A DNA stretch of 6,692 nt from a virus (lineage: Duplodnaviria > Heunggongvirae > Uroviricota > Caudoviricetes). The translations under genes were made by a program, and so were the position numbers. Location of the stretch: the IMG/VR virus record IMGVR_UViG_3300001493_000033; one strand, 5' to 3'. Positions 1 to 6,692 of the stretch are shown here, in pieces. The notes below the pieces were generated by a model. It saw nothing but the letters and a program-made list of their open reading frames with translations, searched no databases and was not told the DNA's origin. The stretch's first letter is position 1; each line of letters opens with the position of its first letter.

Positions 1-10
1 GTGAATAATG

Positions 11-221
11 GGTGAAGGGTGAACATTCGATTCTTCACCTCCGGCATTCTGCCGGTGTGACTCATACCGGTGATTAATCCNCCGNACTGAAAATCACNCA
101 GGGAGAAAAAAGTTTTTTTTTGATTTGATTGTTCACACTGTTCACCTTTCATTTTTCTCTTTAAATTTCAGTGTGATAACGGGTGAATATACGGTGAAGG
201 GTGAACAGTGGATTGTTCACC
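11..221. repeat. Iteron cluster, crr-like (cis replication region) downstream of alpha
   Basis: Exact TGTTCACC at 139-146 and 214-221 and GGTGAACAG at 200-208; one-mismatch copies at 18-25, 32-39, 130-137, 182-189, 193-200; both orientations. Matches the octamer I recall as the P4 alpha-binding type I iteron. Confidence 0.6.
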
Positions 222-239
222 TTCGGGGAATTCAGGGAT

Positions 240-3075: not shown

Positions 3076-3704
3076 TTACAGATAATTGCGGTAACTGTTA
3101 TCCGGGGTGGTTTCCGGGTCAGGCTCCGTGCGGGGAATTTCCCGCCATTCCCGCGCTACCGGTGCTGCCCGGCTGACCGGAACAGGGTCCTGCGGGTAAA
3201 TATCCAGATATTTCTCCCGCCATTTCTGTAATTCCGGGTCTCCGGCCATTTCTTTCAGTACCGCATGCCGGTTTACGGAGCTGCGTTTAAACAGGTCAGG
3301 ACGGTCACAGGTAAATTCCCGCAGAAAACGCCCCAGCGGGATGTCTGTGGTGCGCCCGTCGGCGAGGATACGCACAAGGATACTGAATTTACGGCGGTAC
3401 GGATTCCAGACAATGTCCGGGCAGCGGTACGGCATTTCCCANNNNNNNNNNGGCTGCGTTTAAACAGGTCAGGGCGGTCACAGGTAAATTCCCGCAGAAA
3501 ACGCCCCAGCGGGATGTCTGTGGTGCGCCCGTCAGCGAGGATACGCACAAGGATACTGAATTTACGGCGGTACGGATTCCAGACAATGTCCGGGCAGCGG
3601 TACGGCATTTCCCACGGAATACCGTCTTCCAGAATGCCGACCACGGCCACATCGGGAAAACCGGCAGAACGGTAAATCTCACCGGGCTGGGGAAAATCAA
3701 ACAT
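3076..3704 (-). CDS. Hypothetical protein, P4 orf151-like; 151 aa once the gap-flanking duplication is collapsed
   Basis: The 143-aa and 119-aa ORF fragments overlap through a 162-bp duplicated segment either side of the N run; merging at MPYRCPDIVW gives 32 + 119 = 151 aa. RBS GGGAG 9 nt before ATG (3704-3702), which overlaps the upstream gene stop (ATGTTTGA). Confidence 0.65.
3280..3614. repeat. Duplicated 162-bp segment on both sides of a 10-N scaffold gap (3280-3441 and 3453-3614); probable assembly artifact
   Basis: Near-identical sequence (2 mismatches) directly flanking nnnnnnnnnn at 3442-3451; collapsing it restores a single in-frame 151-aa ORF. Confidence 0.6.
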
Positions 3705-3984
3705 GCGTCCTGTCTCCCCGGTCTTTCTGCTGGGCGAGAAAATCGCGGCACAGGCCTTTGGCTTTCAGCTCATTCAGCACAAAATCAATATCTTCATTCA
3801 GGTAACTGAAAATATGCGGAATGTAGAGCTGATGCAGGCCGGAGAGTTCACGGTGAATCAAATCACCCCCAACAAACTGGGATACGGCGCTGGCGCGGTT
3901 GAGCTTATGGTAAGCCTCAATGCTGAGGTGTTCACGGGCGTCATGACGTGCTGAGACGGTCTGAGGGGCTTTTTTATTACGCAC
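3697..3984 (-). CDS. Epsilon-position protein, 95 aa, GTG start
   Basis: Open frame ending in TGA at 3699-3697, overlapping the next start codon; in-frame GTG at 3984-3982 preceded by GGAGGU with 5-nt spacing; overlaps the stop of the upstream small ORF. Assignment is by position and size only. Confidence 0.5.
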
Positions 3985-4174
3985 GGGACACCTCCACCAC
4001 CGGCAGACGGGCAGCAAGGGAGAGCACATAGTCACGGACAAGGGAACGGCGGGCGCTGCGTTCATCACCGGCGACGGTGCGAAGCATGCAGATACGGGGA
4101 TGACGGTCTGCGCGACGGACAGCCGCAAACACAAAGACAAATTCAGGGTGTGAGGGGGTAAGGGTTGTAGCCAT
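3977..4174 (-). CDS. Small protein, 65 aa, Kil-position (possible host cell division inhibitor Icd/Kil-like)
   Basis: ATG at 4174-4172 with RBS GGAGG (4186-4182) 7 nt upstream; product [21 protein letters not shown]...; identical copy at 5969-6166. Function inferred from position in the P4 operon, not from sequence recognition. Confidence 0.55.
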
Positions 4175-4181
4175 GATGGCA

Positions 4182-4296
4182 GCCTCCTTGAAGTAACAGT
4201 TACAGCTACCACTGGAGTTCCTACGCTCATGGGTGGTAGCCCGGACGGGGGTAGGAATACCGGCCTTCAAGGAAACCGGCCAGCCCGAAGGCTGCC
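4182..4296 (-). ncRNA. P4-type immunity leader RNA region (CI-like): seqB-like element plus seqC-like target overlapping the Kil-like RBS
   Basis: Plus-strand cttcaagg (4265-4272) and gtaggaa (4251-4257) are complementary to ccttgaag/gttcctac at 4186-4226 and again at 4408-4433; local hairpin gctaccac/gtggtagc (4205-4212/4233-4240); CAGCC-UUCG-GGCUG tetraloop hairpin (4281-4294). RNA boundaries not determinable from sequence. Confidence 0.5.
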
Positions 4297-4377
4297 CCGC
4301 CCGGACCACCATTATCTGACAGAGGCTACGGTTTAAAAACCACAGCCAGAAAAACAGGTGTGCCGAAGCAACGACGT

Positions 4378-4399
4378 AAAAAAAGACGCATGGCGCGTC
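4378..4399 (-). terminator. Intrinsic terminator between the upstream seqA-like site and the seqB element
   Basis: Minus-strand GACGCGCCAUGCGUC (6-bp stem incl. one GU, 3-nt loop) followed by U7 (A-run 4378-4384 on plus); conserved in the second copy at 6406-6427. Confidence 0.55.
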
Positions 4400-4407
4400 A
4401 TATGTCG

Positions 4408-4433
4408 CCTTGAAGTAACTCGGGTTCCTACGC
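4408..4433 (-). promoter_or_regulatory. seqA-like upstream target site (direct repeat of the seqC-like site)
   Basis: ccttgaagtaac (4408-4419) and gttcctacgc (4424-4433) repeat the motifs at 4186-4197 and 4217-4226; both are complementary to the seqB element. Confidence 0.5.
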
Positions 4434-4462
4434 CCGGCTGCCGATTTTGCGGCAGCGGAGAA

Positions 4463-4492
4463 ACTATATCCGCAAATGCCGGAAAAAGGCAA
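4463..4492 (-). promoter_or_regulatory. Candidate sigma-70 promoter (PLE-like) reading toward the immunity region
   Basis: On the minus strand, -35 TTGCCT (4492-4487), 18-bp spacer, -10 TATAGT (4468-4463); conserved in copy 2 (-35 at 6515-6520, -10 at 6491-6496). Prediction by eye only. Confidence 0.35.
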
Positions 4493-4527
4493 GCCAGAAA
4501 AAGGGACTTTTTGCAGAGCGGGCATCA

Positions 4528-4794
4528 TCATGCGTCGTACCCCCGTTTGCGTCCGGCAATGCGCCCGGCCATCCATGCGGTGATTTCAGAGTGCAGCCAG
4601 GCCACATTTTTACCGCCAAGACTCACCTGCGGCGGAAATTCCCCCTTACGGATGAGTTCATAGATGGTCGAGCGTGACAGGCCGCACAGGTGCATCACTT
4701 CCGGCAGACGTAAAAAACGCTCCTGCGTGATGTCCGGCAGCGGCATCAGTGGCGTCACAGGGGCGGGAGACGGGGAAGAAAAAACAGCTTGCAT
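4528..4794 (-). CDS. alpA: AlpA/Vis-family phage transcriptional regulator (excision/integrase regulator), 88 aa
   Basis: Product contains the AlpA-type helix-turn-helix region [27 protein letters not shown]; RBS GAGGU 6 nt before ATG (4794-4792); same size as P4 orf88/Vis. Confidence 0.88.
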
Positions 4795-4896
4795 CGGGCT
4801 ACCTCGTTAATGTCCATACAGCACCGGATAAGTCCGTCCGGCTTCGGGTAGCGCTTTATTTTGTGAATATTTTTGGCAGACGCAACAGGGGGGATT

Positions 4897-4914
4897 TGTT
4901 CCGGNAGCCTTACA
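4897..4914. promoter_or_regulatory. TGT-N12-ACA dyad, candidate Ogr/Delta-type activator site for the leftward late promoter (PLL-like)
   Basis: TGT (4897-4899), 12 nt, ACA (4912-4914); centre about 55 bp from a plausible leftward start near 4850, upstream of the regulator ATG at 4794. Confidence 0.4.
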
Positions 4915-4940
4915 ATGACTGTGTGTTTTTTGTTCATTCC

Positions 4941-4970
4941 CACTTAAAGTCATTTAAAGCCACTTAAAGC
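4941..4970. repeat. Three tandem 10-bp direct repeats (cacttaaagt / catttaaagc / cacttaaagc)
   Basis: Perfectly phased decamers at 4941-4950, 4951-4960, 4961-4970, between the leftward dyad and the ori-like iterons. Function unknown. Confidence 0.5.
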
Positions 4971-5073
4971 AATTCGTAATTTTTATAGTGAAATACAAAT
5001 CGTTTCTTCTTATTCATTCACAGCGAATTAATAAAAACAAACAGTAGTAAACAGCACAAAAAGTCCATGAGCG

Positions 5074-5178
5074 GGTGAACAGTGGTGAACAGACGGTGAA
5101 CAGTCATTACTGCGATTGTTCACCCNTTAACTTACTGTATTACTTATCTTTTTTCTTATGGTGAACAGAGGTGAACAG
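5074..5178. repeat. Iteron cluster, ori-like
   Basis: GGTGAACAG at 5074-5082, 5084-5092, 5095-5103 (about 10.5-bp phasing), 5160-5168, 5170-5178, and inverted TGTTCACC at 5117-5124; flanked by AT-rich sequence (4970-5070, 5180-5200). Confidence 0.6.
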
Positions 5179-5256
5179 TAAAATATAAAAAAACAAACAG
5201 TAAGCCGGTTTTTCCTGCGACCTTTTCCTGGCTTGCCGGTCTGAGGATGAGTCTCC

Positions 5257-5274
5257 TGTGTCAGGACTGGCACA
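5257..5274. promoter_or_regulatory. TGT-N12-ACA dyad, candidate Ogr/Delta-type activator site for the rightward late promoter (Psid-like)
   Basis: TGT (5257-5259), 12 nt, ACA (5272-5274); centre about 55 bp upstream of a predicted start near 5320, with the ATG at 5347. Confidence 0.45.
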
Positions 5275-5346
5275 TCTGCAATGCGTCGTGTTGTTGTCCG
5301 GTGTACGTCACAATTTTCTTAACCTGAAGTGACGAGGAGCCGGAAA

Positions 5347-5931
5347 ATGTCTGACAACACCATCCCTGAATATCTGCAACCCGCACTGGCACAACTGGAA
5401 AAGGCCAGAGCCGCTCATCTTGAGAACGCCCGACTGATGGATGAGACCGTCAAGGCCATTGAACGGGCAGAGCAGGAAAAAAATGCGCTGGCGCAGGCCG
5501 ACGGAAATGACGCTGATGACTGGCGCACAGCCTTTCGTGCAGCCGGTGGTGTCCTGAGCGACGAGCTGAAACAGCGCCACATTGAGCGCGTGGCACGCCG
5601 GGAGCTGGTACAGGAATATGNCAATCTGGCCGTGGTGCTGANTTTTGAACGTGAACGCCTGAAAGGGGCGTGTGACAGCACGGCCACCGCCTACCGGAAG
5701 GCACATCATCACCTTCTGAGTCTGTATGCAGAGCATGAGCTGGAACACGCCCTGAATGAAACCTGTGAGGCGCTTGTCCGGGCAATGCATCTGAGTATCC
5801 TGGTACAGGAAAATCCGCTCGCCAACACCACCGGCCATCAGGGCTACGTCGCACCCGATAAAGCTGTCATGCAGCAGGTGAAATCATCGCTGGAACAGAA
5901 AATTAAACAGATGCAAATCAGCCTCACCGGC
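5347..5931 (+). CDS. Sid/Psu-family late-operon protein, 3-prime end lost in the scaffold gap (at least 195 aa)
   Basis: ATG at 5347 with RBS GAGGAG 6 nt upstream (ORF track begins at an upstream in-frame GTG, 5329); charged, coiled-coil-like product; first gene downstream of the divergent dyad promoter. Position and length fit Sid better than Psu, but this is not resolved. Confidence 0.55.
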
Positions 5932-5968
5932 NNNNNNNNNNGCTGAGACGGTCTGAGGGGCTTTTTTA

Positions 5969-6166
5969 TTACGCACGGGACACCTCCACCACCGGCAGAC
6001 GGGCAGCAAGGGAGAGCACATAGTCTCGGACAAGGGAACGGCGGGCGCTGCGTTCATCACCGGCGACGGTGCGAAGCATGCAGATACGGGGATGACGGTC
6101 TGCGCGACGGACAGCCGCAAACACAAAGACAAATTCAGGGTGTGAGGGGGTAAGGGTTGTAGCCAT
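5969..6166 (-). CDS. Second copy of the Kil-position small protein (65 aa)
   Basis: Same ATG and RBS context as 3977-4174; the coding region lies entirely within the near-identical duplicated segment. Confidence 0.5.
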
Positions 6167-6173
6167 GATGGCA

Positions 6174-6461
6174 GCCTCCGTTAGATAGCAGGTTACGCTA
6201 TCGCCGGAGTTCTCACGCTCGATGGCGATAGCCCAGACGGGGGTGAGAATACCGGCTCTAACGGATACCGGCCAGCCCGGAGGCTGCCCCGCCTGAGCTA
6301 CCATTGACTCAGTGGCATAACATGCGATTGCAAACAGGATCATACCTGCACGGCAAACCACACGCCACACCATAATCTGGCGCTCTGTGGCGTTGATTGC
6401 GACACAAAAAAAGACGCATGGCGCGTCATATGTCGCCGTTAGATTGCTCGGGTTCTCACGC
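6174..6461 (-). ncRNA. Variant P4-type immunity region (seqA-, seqB-, seqC-like sites with altered but mutually complementary sequences)
   Basis: seqC-like ccgttagatagc (6178-6189) and gttctcacgc (6209-6218); seqB-like gtgagaa (6243-6249) and tctaacgg (6257-6264); seqA-like 6436-6461; hairpin gctatcgcc/ggcgatagc (6197-6205/6224-6232); UCCG-loop hairpin 6273-6286; terminator 6406-6427. Confidence 0.5.
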
Positions 6462-6555
6462 CCGGCTGCCGATTTTGCGGCAGCGGAAAAACTATATCCG
6501 CAAATGCCGGAAAAAGGCAAGCCAGAAAAAGGGAGTTTTTGCAGAACAGGCATCA

Positions 6556-6692
6556 TCATGCGTCGTACCCCCGTTTGCGTCCGGCGATGCGCCCGGCCAT
6601 CCATGCAGTGACTTCAGAGTGCAGCCAGGCCACATTTTTACCGCCAAGACTCACCTGCGGCGGAAATTCCCCCTTACGGATGAGTTCATAGA
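6556..6692 (-). CDS. alpA: AlpA/Vis-family regulator, second copy, C-terminal part only (5-prime end beyond window)
   Basis: Near-identical to 4528-4664; stop codon at 6558-6556. Confidence 0.75.

What the first reader, a model, noticed from the sequence alone, without database searches (positions are those of the whole stretch)
4182..4433. RNA-only immunity triad (seqA / seqB / seqC) with the Kil-like RBS buried in the seqC target
A central element (plus-strand gtaggaa 4251-4257 and cttcaagg 4265-4272) is complementary to two direct-repeat sites, one upstream (4408-4433) and one downstream (4186-4226). The downstream site ends in ...CUUCAAGGAGG, so pairing would cover the Shine-Dalgarno of the 65-aa Kil-like ORF. 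This is the architecture of P4 CI-RNA immunity, where a small RNA rather than a repressor protein shuts off the replication operon. No protein repressor ORF is present in this interval.
Basis: partly seen in the sequence, partly recalled or inferred. Interest (0 to 1): 0.8.

Follow-up and report, generated by a model that had tools for sequence, protein, structure and literature searches.

The report
P4 satellite-phage antisense RNA immunity switch
This is the well-known RNA-based immunity region of a P4-type satellite prophage of E. coli, in which a small processed RNA pairs with two sites on its own transcript to shut off the replication genes; it is real and well supported, but it is not new.

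Summary
On the minus-strand RNA, UUCCUAC (4257-4251) and CCUUGAAG (4272-4265) are exactly complementary to GUAGGAA/CUUCAAGG upstream (4431-4425, 4415-4408) and downstream (4224-4218, 4193-4186). The downstream site runs into the AAGGAGG ribosome-binding site of a 65-aa Kil/Icd-like ORF.

The region is about 94% identical to phage P4 and 99.9% identical to E. coli P4-like prophages. Rfam places C4 (= P4 CI RNA), isrK (= seqA leader) and c4-a1b1 on it, all above their gathering scores.

Across 125 distinct related leaders there are 19 b-keys and 8 a-keys in 41 combinations. The three sites change together: 100% (seqA:seqB) and 97% (seqB:seqC) of cells are paired, and 12 pairs in each interaction carry double compensatory changes.

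The window itself carries a second copy with a different b-key and a-key (6221-6497), predicted to be heteroimmune.

One correction is needed. The interval is not ORF-free: it lies wholly inside eta (199 aa, Pfam Phage_ASH), of which kil is the nested C-terminal part.

The parts
4463..4492 (-). PLE-type constitutive sigma-70 promoter (TTGCCT, 18-nt spacer, TATAGT), internal to eta
   Evidence: The only promoter-like site found in 3900-5000. It aligns with the conserved block in P4 and in copy 2. The P4 record marks a '-10 consensus' at the homologous place. Function is inferred by homology.
4379..4456 (-). seqA leader (isrK-like RNA): 5' hairpin, small hairpin presenting a1 in its loop, single-stranded b1, then terminator t1
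   Evidence: Rfam isrK RF01394 scores 73.4 bits against a gathering score of 50. c4-a1b1 RF03163 scores 50.1 against 46.7 at 4417-4469. The a1-presenting hairpin is paired in 100% of 34 alleles.
4425..4431 (-). a1 (GUAGGAA), upstream target of the CI bulge
   Evidence: helix 18-24/114-120 is 100% paired and 6 of 7 pairs carry double changes.
4408..4415 (-). b1 (CUUCAAGG), upstream target of the CI loop
   Evidence: helix 34-41/99-106 is 100% paired and 6 of 8 pairs carry double changes.
4378..4399 (-). Intrinsic terminator t1 (GACGCGCCAUGCGUC followed by U7), 8 nt after b1
   Evidence: The only terminator-like site in 3900-5000. It is conserved in P4 and in copy 2. Its position matches P4 t1, which I place between PLE and cI from memory of Briani 2000.
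4229..4316 (-). CI RNA (Rfam C4 family); the stem-bounded RNA is 4311-4234 (78 nt). It has a 17-bp closing stem, two hairpins and an 8-nt bulge
   Evidence: Rfam C4 RF01695 scores 86.1 bits, E=1.5e-16. The MFE is -53.3 kcal/mol with z=-5.0. The 27 internal pairs are 100% paired in 34 alleles against 29-52% when slid.
4265..4272 (-). b' (CCUUGAAG) in the loop of CI hairpin 2, part of seqB
   Evidence: The opening cost is 2.6 kcal/mol.
4251..4257 (-). a' (UUCCUAC) in the single-stranded bulge of CI, part of seqB
   Evidence: The opening cost is 0.0 kcal/mol.
4218..4224 (-). a2 (GUAGGAA), downstream target (seqC)
   Evidence: helix 114-120/147-153 is 100% paired and 6 of 7 pairs carry double changes.
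4186..4193 (-). b2 (CUUCAAGG), downstream target (seqC), overlapping the ribosome-binding site
   Evidence: helix 98-106/179-187 is 94.8% paired and 6 of 9 pairs carry double changes. The best loop-binding 12-mer is ACUUCAAGGAGG at -14.8 kcal/mol.
4183..4189 (-). Shine-Dalgarno AAGGAGG of kil; the AUG is at 4174-4172
   Evidence: Read directly from the sequence.
3977..4174 (-). kil, a 65-aa Icd-like cell-division inhibitor and the first translated gene after the promoter. Its first 40 nt (4170-4131) are C 40% / G 8%, which is rut-like
   Evidence: NCBIfam NF033153 phage_ICD_like, E=1.6e-21. PGAP gives the same name in the 99.9% identical E. coli locus.
3977..4576 (-). eta (199 aa), an ORF that contains the promoter, seqA, CI, seqC and kil; translatable only from an upstream (PLL-type) transcript
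   Evidence: Pfam PF10554 Phage_ASH, E=3e-34. The frame is kept open in most relatives, and the spacer length classes 76/82/112/121/196/202 nt are all 1 mod 3. PMC10111431 describes P4 eta in exactly this way.
3697..3984 (-). epsilon (helper derepression protein). Its GTG start overlaps the kil stop
   Evidence: Pfam PF25738 Derepression, E=7.7e-51, covering 1-95 of 95. The P4 annotation agrees. The overlap is read.
4528..4794 (-). vis/orf88 (AlpA-family HTH), upstream of eta and overlapping its start
   Evidence: Pfam PF05930 Phage_AlpA, E=3.9e-21. It corresponds to P4 ORF88.
6221..6497 (-). Second copy of CI (6308-6221) and the seqA leader (6484-6407), with different a and b sequences from copy 1 and so predicted heteroimmune. 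Its seqC, SD and kil follow downstream, to about 5969
   Evidence: Rfam C4 74.5 bits, isrK 72.0 and c4-a1b1 49.5. The alignment is and the cross-duplex matrix. It is 99.9% identical to E. coli A27.

Best explanation
This is the immunity region of a P4-family satellite prophage.

A constitutive promoter inside the eta reading frame (4492-4463, minus strand) transcribes a leader that contains, in order:
- seqA (a1 and b1)
- the intrinsic terminator t1
- a spacer
- the CI RNA precursor
- seqC (a2 and b2)
- the ribosome-binding site of kil

CI RNA is cut out of this transcript and accumulates. In P4 the cutting is done by RNase P and PNPase.

CI has two exposed elements: b' (CCUUGAAG) in a hairpin loop and a' (UUCCUAC) in a bulge. 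They pair with a1/b1 just before t1, which strengthens termination there and so autoregulates CI. They also pair with a2/b2, and that duplex covers the kil ribosome-binding site.

Untranslated kil RNA is C-rich and G-poor at its 5' end, so it is then terminated. As a result epsilon (whose start overlaps the kil stop), the downstream ORFs and the alpha primase-helicase are not expressed. This maintains lysogeny and blocks superinfecting satellites that carry the same a/b keys.

Transcripts from the upstream late promoter are translated through vis and eta across the whole region, which overrides the RNA control.

Basis of each step:
- Shown here: homology, the RNA fold, complementarity, concerted covariation of all three sites, overlap with the ribosome-binding site, and the gene context.
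- Taken from P4 literature or inferred: processing, termination at t1, t4 and timm, and the immunity phenotype.
For: Homology:
- 94% identity to P4 and 99.9% to E. coli prophages with the P4 gene order int, alpha, DUF5375, orf151, epsilon, kil, vis, sid, delta, psu.
- Three Rfam families score above their gathering thresholds.

Structure:
- The CI fold is -53.3 kcal/mol with z=-5, and b' and a' are unpaired.
- All 27 internal pairs are kept in 34 alleles.

Pairing:
- Self duplexes score -11.4 and -14.8 (b) and -8.5 (a) kcal/mol, against -0.7 to -7.6 for copy 1 CI on copy 2 or P4 targets.
- Accessibility-corrected net energies are -4.7 to -7.6 per helix.

Covariation:
- 125 unique leaders carry 19 b-keys, 8 a-keys and 41 combinations.
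- Each locus's own exact complement is present in 88/119, 93/119, 122/125 and 125/125 cases, against 0.2-0.8% for non-self keys. Most misses are G.U wobbles at the same positions.
- seqA:seqB is 100% paired over 510 cells, with 12 of 15 pairs doubly changed and 38-52% paired when slid.
- seqB:seqC is 97.1% paired over 544 cells, with 12 of 16 pairs doubly changed.
- P4 and copy 2 differ by four substitutions at matching positions in each of b1, b' and b2.

Downstream genes:
- kil is Icd-like, E=1.6e-21.
- The kil 5' end is rut-like, and the kil stop overlaps the epsilon start.

Literature: PMC4825925, PMC3632133 and PMC10111431 describe CI, seqA, seqC, eta and kil in P4.
Against: - No expression data are available for this allele, so the promoter, processing, termination and immunity are all inferred by homology.
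- A nested-only cofold predicts no intermolecular pairs. This is a limit of the model for loop and bulge contacts.
- In copy 2 the isolated seqC segment hides b2 in a local hairpin with an opening cost of 10.5 kcal/mol, so binding there may have to occur during transcription.
- The hairpin between a2 and b2 is only moderately conserved, at 78% paired.
- One related locus, L207, has a CI loop that does not match its own b targets.
Confidence: 0.93

Rival explanations
1. The short promoter-to-t1 transcript (4456-4379, isrK-like) is itself a trans-acting small RNA, as IsrK is in Salmonella Gifsy-1. Because it carries a1 and b1, it could titrate CI or remodel the long transcript to activate translation of the downstream ORF. 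This would be an added layer rather than a replacement for CI immunity.
For: - Rfam isrK scores 73.4 bits.
- A complete promoter, hairpins and an intrinsic terminator would yield a discrete RNA of about 78 nt.
- PMC4825925 shows a dual sRNA/mRNA function for IsrK and calls P4 seqA its structural homologue.
- PMC3632133 reports that IsrK-like elements of P4-like prophages are required in S. Typhi TraDIS.
Against: - The genes downstream of Gifsy-1 isrK (orf45, anrP, isrJ) are absent here. Downstream are kil, epsilon and alpha.
- The covariation fits seqA as a CI target equally well, so nothing here singles out a trans function.
Confidence: 0.15
2. It is a P1/P7/N15-type anti-immunity module (c4 RNA controlling icd and an antirepressor). 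In that case the element's primary repressor would be a protein encoded elsewhere, and this RNA would only gate an antirepressor.
For: - The RNA belongs to the same Rfam family and clan as P1/P7 c4.
- The first ORF is Icd-like.
- Distant DNA hits include P1-like D6 and N15-like phiKO2 at their icd regions.
- Epsilon is functionally an antirepressor of the helper phage.
Against: - There is no P1-type ant gene and no repressor gene anywhere in the 99.9% identical complete prophage.
- The gene order and 94-97% DNA identity are those of P4, where CI RNA is the immunity factor (PMC4825925, PMC10111431).
Confidence: 0.04
3. The immunity factor is a protein translated from the long ORF across the interval (the old 'cI/ash' ORF of the P4 records), and the complementarities are incidental.
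For: - The ORF is open (199 aa), matches Pfam Phage_ASH and keeps its frame across indels.
- It was annotated as 'cI gene product' or 'put. ash gene' in the 1980s-1990 P4 records.
Against: - Concerted replacement at three separate sites that always restores Watson-Crick complementarity cannot come from protein constraint.
- The promoter lies inside the ORF, so the constitutive transcript cannot encode it.
- The literature assigns immunity to the RNA and gives eta an anti-termination role (PMC10111431).
Confidence: 0.02
4. The complementarity is a chance or low-complexity artefact.
For: None. The 7-8 nt elements are short when taken one at a time.
Against: The shuffle controls, the Rfam scores and covariation in 125 leaders all argue against chance.
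Confidence: 0.005

Closest known systems
Phage-plasmid P4 immunity: CI RNA (seqB) with targets seqA and seqC in the leader of the left operon. Sources: Ghisotti 1992; Sabbattini 1995; Briani 2000; Forti 1999 and 2002 (titles as cited in PMC4825925, PMC3632133 and PMC10111431; details of Briani 2000 from memory).
   Same: Everything structural is the same. This covers the promoter, the seqA hairpins, terminator t1, the CI fold, seqC over the kil ribosome-binding site, nesting in eta, vis upstream, and epsilon and alpha downstream. DNA identity is 94-97%.
   Different: The specificity keys differ: a' is UUCCUAC here against UUCUCAC in P4, and b' is CCUUGAAG against CCUGUGAA, with matching changes in both targets. 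Cross-duplexes are therefore weak, which predicts heteroimmunity. The t1-to-CI spacer is 45 nt shorter and divergent.
P4-like retronphage phiR73, a heteroimmune relative of P4 (Sabbattini et al. 1996, Virology 216:389; title as cited in PMC7567579).
   Same: It sets the precedent that P4-family members share the CI/seqA/seqC design but differ in specificity determinants.
   Different: The phiR73 sequence was not compared here, so I cannot say whether this allele equals the phiR73 allele.
P1/P7 c4 antisense RNA with a1/b1 and a2/b2 targets controlling icd-ant, and the N15 processed RNA controlling icd-antA (Ravin 1999, cited in PMC7567579; P1/P7 details from general knowledge).
   Same: The RNA family and clan are the same (Rfam C4 and c4-a1b1). 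The two-element a'/b' recognition is the same, the downstream target also covers the ribosome-binding site of an Icd-like ORF, and there is polarity on the next gene.
   Different: The gene under control there is a phage antirepressor, and a separate protein repressor exists. Here the controlled genes are epsilon and the alpha replication genes, and no protein repressor is present.
Salmonella Gifsy-1 IsrK and STnc1160 (PMC4825925).
   Same: The isrK-family leader ends at an intrinsic terminator and is followed by a processed C4-like RNA that shares complementarity with it.
   Different: The downstream cargo there is orf45, anrP and isrJ, and the demonstrated role is translational activation. 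Neither applies here.

Membership tests
P4-type CI RNA immunity (Rfam C4 RF01695 / isrK RF01394 / c4-a1b1 RF03163) | Covariance-model score above each family's curated gathering threshold | tested here: met
   C4 scores 86.1 against 45, isrK 73.4 against 50 and c4-a1b1 50.1 against 46.7. The second copy scores 74.5, 72.0 and 49.5.
P4-type CI RNA immunity | CI fold: a long closing stem and two hairpins, with the recognition sequences exposed in a loop (b') and a bulge (a') | tested here: met
   The MFE is -53.3 kcal/mol with z=-5. All 27 pairs are 100% paired in 34 alleles. Opening costs are 0.0 and 2.6 kcal/mol.
P4-type CI RNA immunity | Two cis targets, one upstream (seqA) and one downstream (seqC) of CI on the same transcript, each complementary to seqB | tested here: met
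   Exact complements are shown, energies and the transcript scan, and covariation.
P4-type CI RNA immunity | The downstream target overlaps the translation-initiation region of kil, the first translated gene | tested here: met
   b2 at 4193-4186 overlaps AAGGAGG at 4189-4183, and the AUG is at 4174. kil is Icd-like.
P4-type CI RNA immunity | Intrinsic terminator t1 between the promoter/seqA and CI | tested here: met
   GACGCGCCAUGCGUC followed by U7 at 4399-4378, conserved in P4. Dependence of termination on CI was not tested.
P4-type CI RNA immunity | Located in the left (replication) operon of a P4-like satellite: vis, then eta/kil, epsilon and alpha, nested in eta | tested here: met
   PMC10111431.
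P4-type CI RNA immunity | CI is released by processing (RNase P, PNPase) and accumulates as a small stable RNA | not testable with these tools
   Needs a Northern blot or RNA-seq in wild-type, rnpA-ts and pnp backgrounds.
P4-type CI RNA immunity | It confers superinfection immunity and prevents replication-gene expression in the lysogen | not testable with these tools
   Needs genetics. Only the prediction of allele-specific pairing is available.
P1/P7/N15 c4-icd-ant anti-immunity module | c4-family RNA with a1/b1 and a2/b2 targets and an Icd-like first ORF | tested here: met
P1/P7/N15 c4-icd-ant anti-immunity module | An antirepressor gene (ant/antA) downstream of icd, and a separate protein repressor in the element | tested here: not met
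   Downstream are epsilon (PF25738), orf151, DUF5375 and the alpha primase. No ant and no repressor appears in the complete 99.9% identical prophage.
Gifsy-1 IsrK locus | isrK followed by orf45, anrP and isrJ in a lambdoid prophage | tested here: not met
   The isrK model matches, but the context is a P4 satellite.

The most novel reading that the evidence does not exclude
The most novel reading not excluded concerns the family rather than this locus. P4-family immunity would be a two-key combinatorial code. At least 19 b-keys and 8 a-keys occur in at least 41 combinations among 125 leaders.

Each switch requires concerted replacement at three separated sites (order a1-b1 ... b'-a' ... a2-b2), all inside the eta coding frame. 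No single crossover can produce that arrangement.

The window's scaffold captures two such heteroimmune alleles from one sample. The large open-access survey of P4-like satellites (PMC8628076) does not mention the immunity RNA at all, so this diversity may not have been catalogued.
Probability: 0.4. Interest if true: 0.35.

Novelty: already known. Interest (0 to 1): 0.15.

Why it matters
For the scan, this shows that the first-stage reader can recognise a real RNA regulatory triad from raw sequence. The biology was established for P4 decades ago and is captured by three Rfam families.

The practical value is in annotation. RefSeq/PGAP labels this RNA region only as a partial 'ash family protein' pseudogene plus an Icd-like CDS. 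As a result, the immunity determinant of a mobile element matched in about a third of the complete E. coli genomes searched (1,799 of 5,426) goes unannotated.

The allele table could also be used to predict which co-resident or incoming P4-like satellites exclude one another.

Tried and rejected
The stricter pattern against viral contigs supplied the useful loci.
2. My first regex anchors for seqA and seqC failed on 78 of 125 leaders. I replaced them with fixed-core tests and a composite alignment.
3. RNAcofold of full-length CI with each target gave no intermolecular pairs. I rejected this as a limit of nested-only models for loop and bulge contacts and used hybrid energy plus opening energy instead.
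4. The P4 CI ends I remembered (8486-8418) do not coincide with the stem boundaries, so I do not use them. I give only the Rfam and stem-bounded coordinates.
5. The primary P4 papers PMC176756 and PMC94026 are not held. Mechanistic details of t1, t4 and timm therefore rest on secondary open-access descriptions and on memory.
6. The hairpin between a2 and b2, as a candidate t4 element, has only moderate support at 78% paired. No claim is made for it.
7. The L207 key mismatch was not found in complete E. coli genomes, where the best match is 95.9%. It remains unresolved.

Full report
WHAT IS THERE

Read as minus-strand RNA, the region runs in this order:
- a sigma-70-type promoter, TTGCCT-18 nt-TATAGT, at 4492-4463
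- a 5' hairpin
- a small hairpin whose loop carries GUAGGAA (a1, 4431-4425)
- single-stranded CUUCAAGG (b1, 4415-4408)
- an intrinsic terminator, GACGCGCCAUGCGUC plus U7, at 4399-4378
- a spacer of about 60 nt
- a highly structured 88-nt RNA at 4316-4229
- GUAGGAA again (a2, 4224-4218)
- a weak hairpin
- CUUCAAGG again (b2, 4193-4186), running directly into GGAGG (4187-4183)
- the AUG at 4174 of a 65-codon ORF

The structured RNA exposes CCUUGAAG (b', 4272-4265) in a hairpin loop and UUCCUAC (a', 4257-4251) in a bulge. These are exact complements of b1/b2 and a1/a2.

IS IT MORE THAN CHANCE?

Yes.
- CTTCAAGG occurs 4 times against 0.24 expected, and three of those four are the triad.
- GCGTAGGAAC occurs only at the two targets, against 0.01 expected.
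- Scanning 820 nt of the transcript with the loop and the bulge returns seqC and seqA as the top sites. Energies are -14.8 and -11.8 kcal/mol for the loop and -8.5 for the bulge. Shuffled targets give -1.6 to -3.3.
- After charging the cost of opening each site, every helix remains favourable for this allele, at -4.7 to -7.6 kcal/mol.

WHAT IT IS

The region is about 94% identical to phage P4 (X51522 8141-9036) and 99.9% identical to chromosomal prophages of E. coli. Of 5,426 complete E. coli genomes, 1,799 have a match.

The complete 99.9% identical prophage has the P4 gene order: integrase, alpha primase-helicase, DUF5375, orf151, epsilon, Icd-like/kil, vis (AlpA family), sid, delta, psu. 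The window's 4800-5931 is the P4 ori plus sid at 96.9% identity.

Rfam places three families on the interval, all above their gathering scores. C4 scores 86.1 bits at 4316-4229, isrK 73.4 at 4456-4379 and c4-a1b1 50.1 at 4469-4417. Two open-access papers state that C4 and isrK are what the P4 literature calls CI RNA and seqA (PMC3632133, PMC4825925). The 65-aa ORF is Icd-like (NF033153, E=1.6e-21), which corresponds to P4 kil. So this is a homologue of the P4 immunity region, not merely something built like it.

COVARIATION

The window contains its own control. After a 10-N scaffold gap, a second copy of the region (5942-6692) is 93-94% identical to the first but carries different keys:

| Allele | b' | b1 / b2 | a' | a1 / a2 |
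|---|---|---|---|---|
| P4 | CCUGUGAA | UUCACAGG | UUCUCAC | GUGAGAA |
| Window copy 2 | CCGUUAGA | UCUAACGG | UUCUCAC | GUGAGAA |
| Window copy 1 | CCUUGAAG | CUUCAAGG | UUCCUAC | GUAGGAA |

Between P4 and copy 2, 12 of the 21 substitutions outside the variable spacer fall in the three 8-nt b sites. Four fall at matching positions in each site. Predicted cross-pairing between alleles is weak.

I then collected loci with the exact CI core from viral and genome contigs.
- The 125 distinct leaders carry 19 b-keys and 8 a-keys in 41 combinations.
- A locus's own exact complement is present at seqA and seqC in 88/119 and 93/119 cases for b, and in 122/125 and 125/125 cases for a.
- Non-self keys match in only 0.2-0.8% of cases.
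- Nearly all misses are G.U wobbles at the same fixed offsets.

I also ran the pair-counting tool on a composite alignment of 34 alleles, which were chosen to differ in their keys.
- seqA:seqB is 100% paired over 510 cells, and 12 of 15 pairs show double compensatory changes.
- seqB:seqC is 97.1% paired over 544 cells, and 12 of 16 pairs show double changes.
- Slid controls pair only 38-52% of cells in both cases.
- CI's own 27 pairs are 100% kept.

Two caveats apply. The two short hairpin stems could not vary, because the search pattern fixed them. The rows were also selected to be diverse.

A NEEDED CORRECTION

The interval is not free of ORFs. A 199-codon frame (3977-4576, minus strand) runs through the promoter, seqA, CI and seqC and ends as kil.
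- It matches Pfam Phage_ASH at E=3e-34.
- It stays open in most relatives.
- The six main spacer length classes are all 1 mod 3.

This ORF is P4 eta. PMC10111431 describes the arrangement as follows:
- The constitutive promoter is internal to eta.
- Its transcript is quickly terminated through the CI and seqA interactions and is processed to give CI.
- Kil is the truncated form, translated on read-through.
- Full-length Eta is made only from the upstream late promoter, coupled to the alpA homologue.
- Translation of eta prevents termination.

The old P4 GenBank records, and PGAP today, label part of this frame 'cI gene product' or 'ash'. So the statement 'no repressor protein' is right, while 'no ORF' is wrong.

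HOW IT MOST LIKELY WORKS

Shown here:
- the RNA fold
- exposed a' and b'
- two cognate targets that co-evolve with them
- b2 overlapping the kil ribosome-binding site, with the best loop-binding 12-mer being ACUUCAAGGAGG
- b1 lying 8 nt before an intrinsic terminator
- a C-rich, G-poor start of kil (C 40%, G 8% at 4170-4131)
- the kil stop overlapping the epsilon GTG start

Inferred from P4:
- CI is processed from the leader.
- Pairing at seqA enhances termination at t1, which autoregulates CI.
- Pairing at seqC blocks kil translation. The untranslated RNA is then terminated before epsilon and alpha, giving lysogeny maintenance and key-specific superinfection immunity.
- Transcription from the late promoter, with eta translation, bypasses the control.

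RIVALS

- An IsrK-like trans function for the short promoter-to-t1 RNA is plausible as an extra layer (about 0.15). Nothing here demands it.
- A P1/N15-type anti-immunity reading fails on gene content, because there is no ant and no protein repressor.
- A protein repressor from the long ORF cannot explain complementarity-restoring changes at three sites.
- Chance is excluded.

NOVELTY AND SCORE

The system is already known. It was characterised in P4 (Ghisotti 1992; Sabbattini 1995; Forti 1999 and 2002; Briani 2000). Heteroimmune relatives have been described (phiR73; Sabbattini 1996, as cited in PMC7567579). Three Rfam families represent it.

This allele differs from P4 in both keys and is common in E. 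coli, with 92 complete-genome records at 99% identity or more. Interest is 0.15.

The only mildly novel angle is at family level. The a and b keys form a combinatorial code, and each switch needs concerted changes at three sites inside a coding frame. The main open-access survey of P4-like satellites does not discuss the immunity RNA.

Noticed in passing
window 3442-3451, 5932-5941, and 26 single N positions: The window is a scaffold rather than contiguous genome. There are two 10-N gaps. The 162 nt before the first gap (3280-3441) repeat after it (3453-3614, 99%). The piece after the second gap restarts in the epsilon/kil region of a different P4-like prophage. The single Ns look like collapsed polymorphisms from co-assembled P4-like copies.
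   Followed up: partly
window 5942-6692 (minus strand): This is a second eta/kil-CI-seqA copy, 93-94% identical to the first. It has a different b-key (CCGUUAGA/UCUAACGG) and a different a-key (UUCUCAC/GUGAGAA, the same as P4). It is 99.9% identical to E. coli A27 and is predicted to be heteroimmune to both copy 1 and P4.
   Followed up: yes
alignment A1 (window 4120-4520, window 6112-6548, and L001 780-1220): Between P4 and copy 2, 12 of the 21 substitutions outside the variable spacer lie in the three 8-nt b sites, four at matching positions in each. This is a concerted triple replacement that switches specificity.
   Followed up: yes
loci L004-L243 (125 unique leaders): The a and b keys assort combinatorially: 19 b-keys, 8 a-keys and 41 combinations. 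Their order on the RNA (a1-b1 ... b'-a' ... a2-b2) means no single crossover can exchange one key at all three sites.
   Followed up: partly
L207 about 1650-2040: This is a natural mismatch. The CI loop is CCAATAAG, but both of the locus's own targets read CTTCAAGG, so the b-key is broken while the a-key is intact. No identical combination occurs in complete E. coli genomes (best 95.9%). It may be a recombinant with weakened self-immunity or a chimeric assembly.
   Followed up: partly
window 3977-4576 (minus strand); the t1-to-CI spacer at 4317-4377: The spacer between t1 and CI is the most variable part of the leader, with length classes of 76, 82, 112, 121, 196 and 202 nt. All of these main classes are 1 mod 3, so the eta reading frame is preserved across indels. 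RNA elements and a protein frame are therefore under joint constraint.
   Followed up: partly
window 4335-4354 and 4483-4502: The block around the promoter -35 (RNA sense UUUUUCUGGCUUGCCUUUUU) recurs at 80% identity in the spacer just upstream of CI (UUUUUCUGGCUGUGGUUUUU). The repeat scan lists no such repeat in copy 2's longer spacer. Its significance is unknown.
   Followed up: no
window 3977-3984 and 4131-4170: The kil stop codon overlaps the GTG start of epsilon, which suggests translational coupling. The first 40 nt of kil are C 40% / G 8%, a Rho-utilisation-like signature that fits the Rho-dependent terminator reported for P4.
   Followed up: partly
window 1-226: Direct repeats containing GGTGAACA / TGTTCACC-like units lie downstream of the alpha gene. 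They resemble P4 type-1 ori/crr iterons. I did not compare them with the annotated P4 repeats.
   Followed up: no
L003 7250-7627 (E. coli Ec-FL1-1X, 99.9% identical): RefSeq/PGAP annotates the CI/seqA RNA region only as a partial 'ash family protein' pseudogene. No ncRNA feature is present, so the immunity determinant is unannotated in that genome.
   Followed up: yes
L029, L117, L140, L169 and others (genome contigs): The exact CI core sequence also occurs in other contigs, some with shorter loops and different keys; L029 is from a Ralstonia MAG. The other titles were not confirmed. The same RNA scaffold therefore appears to be used outside Enterobacterales.
   Followed up: no
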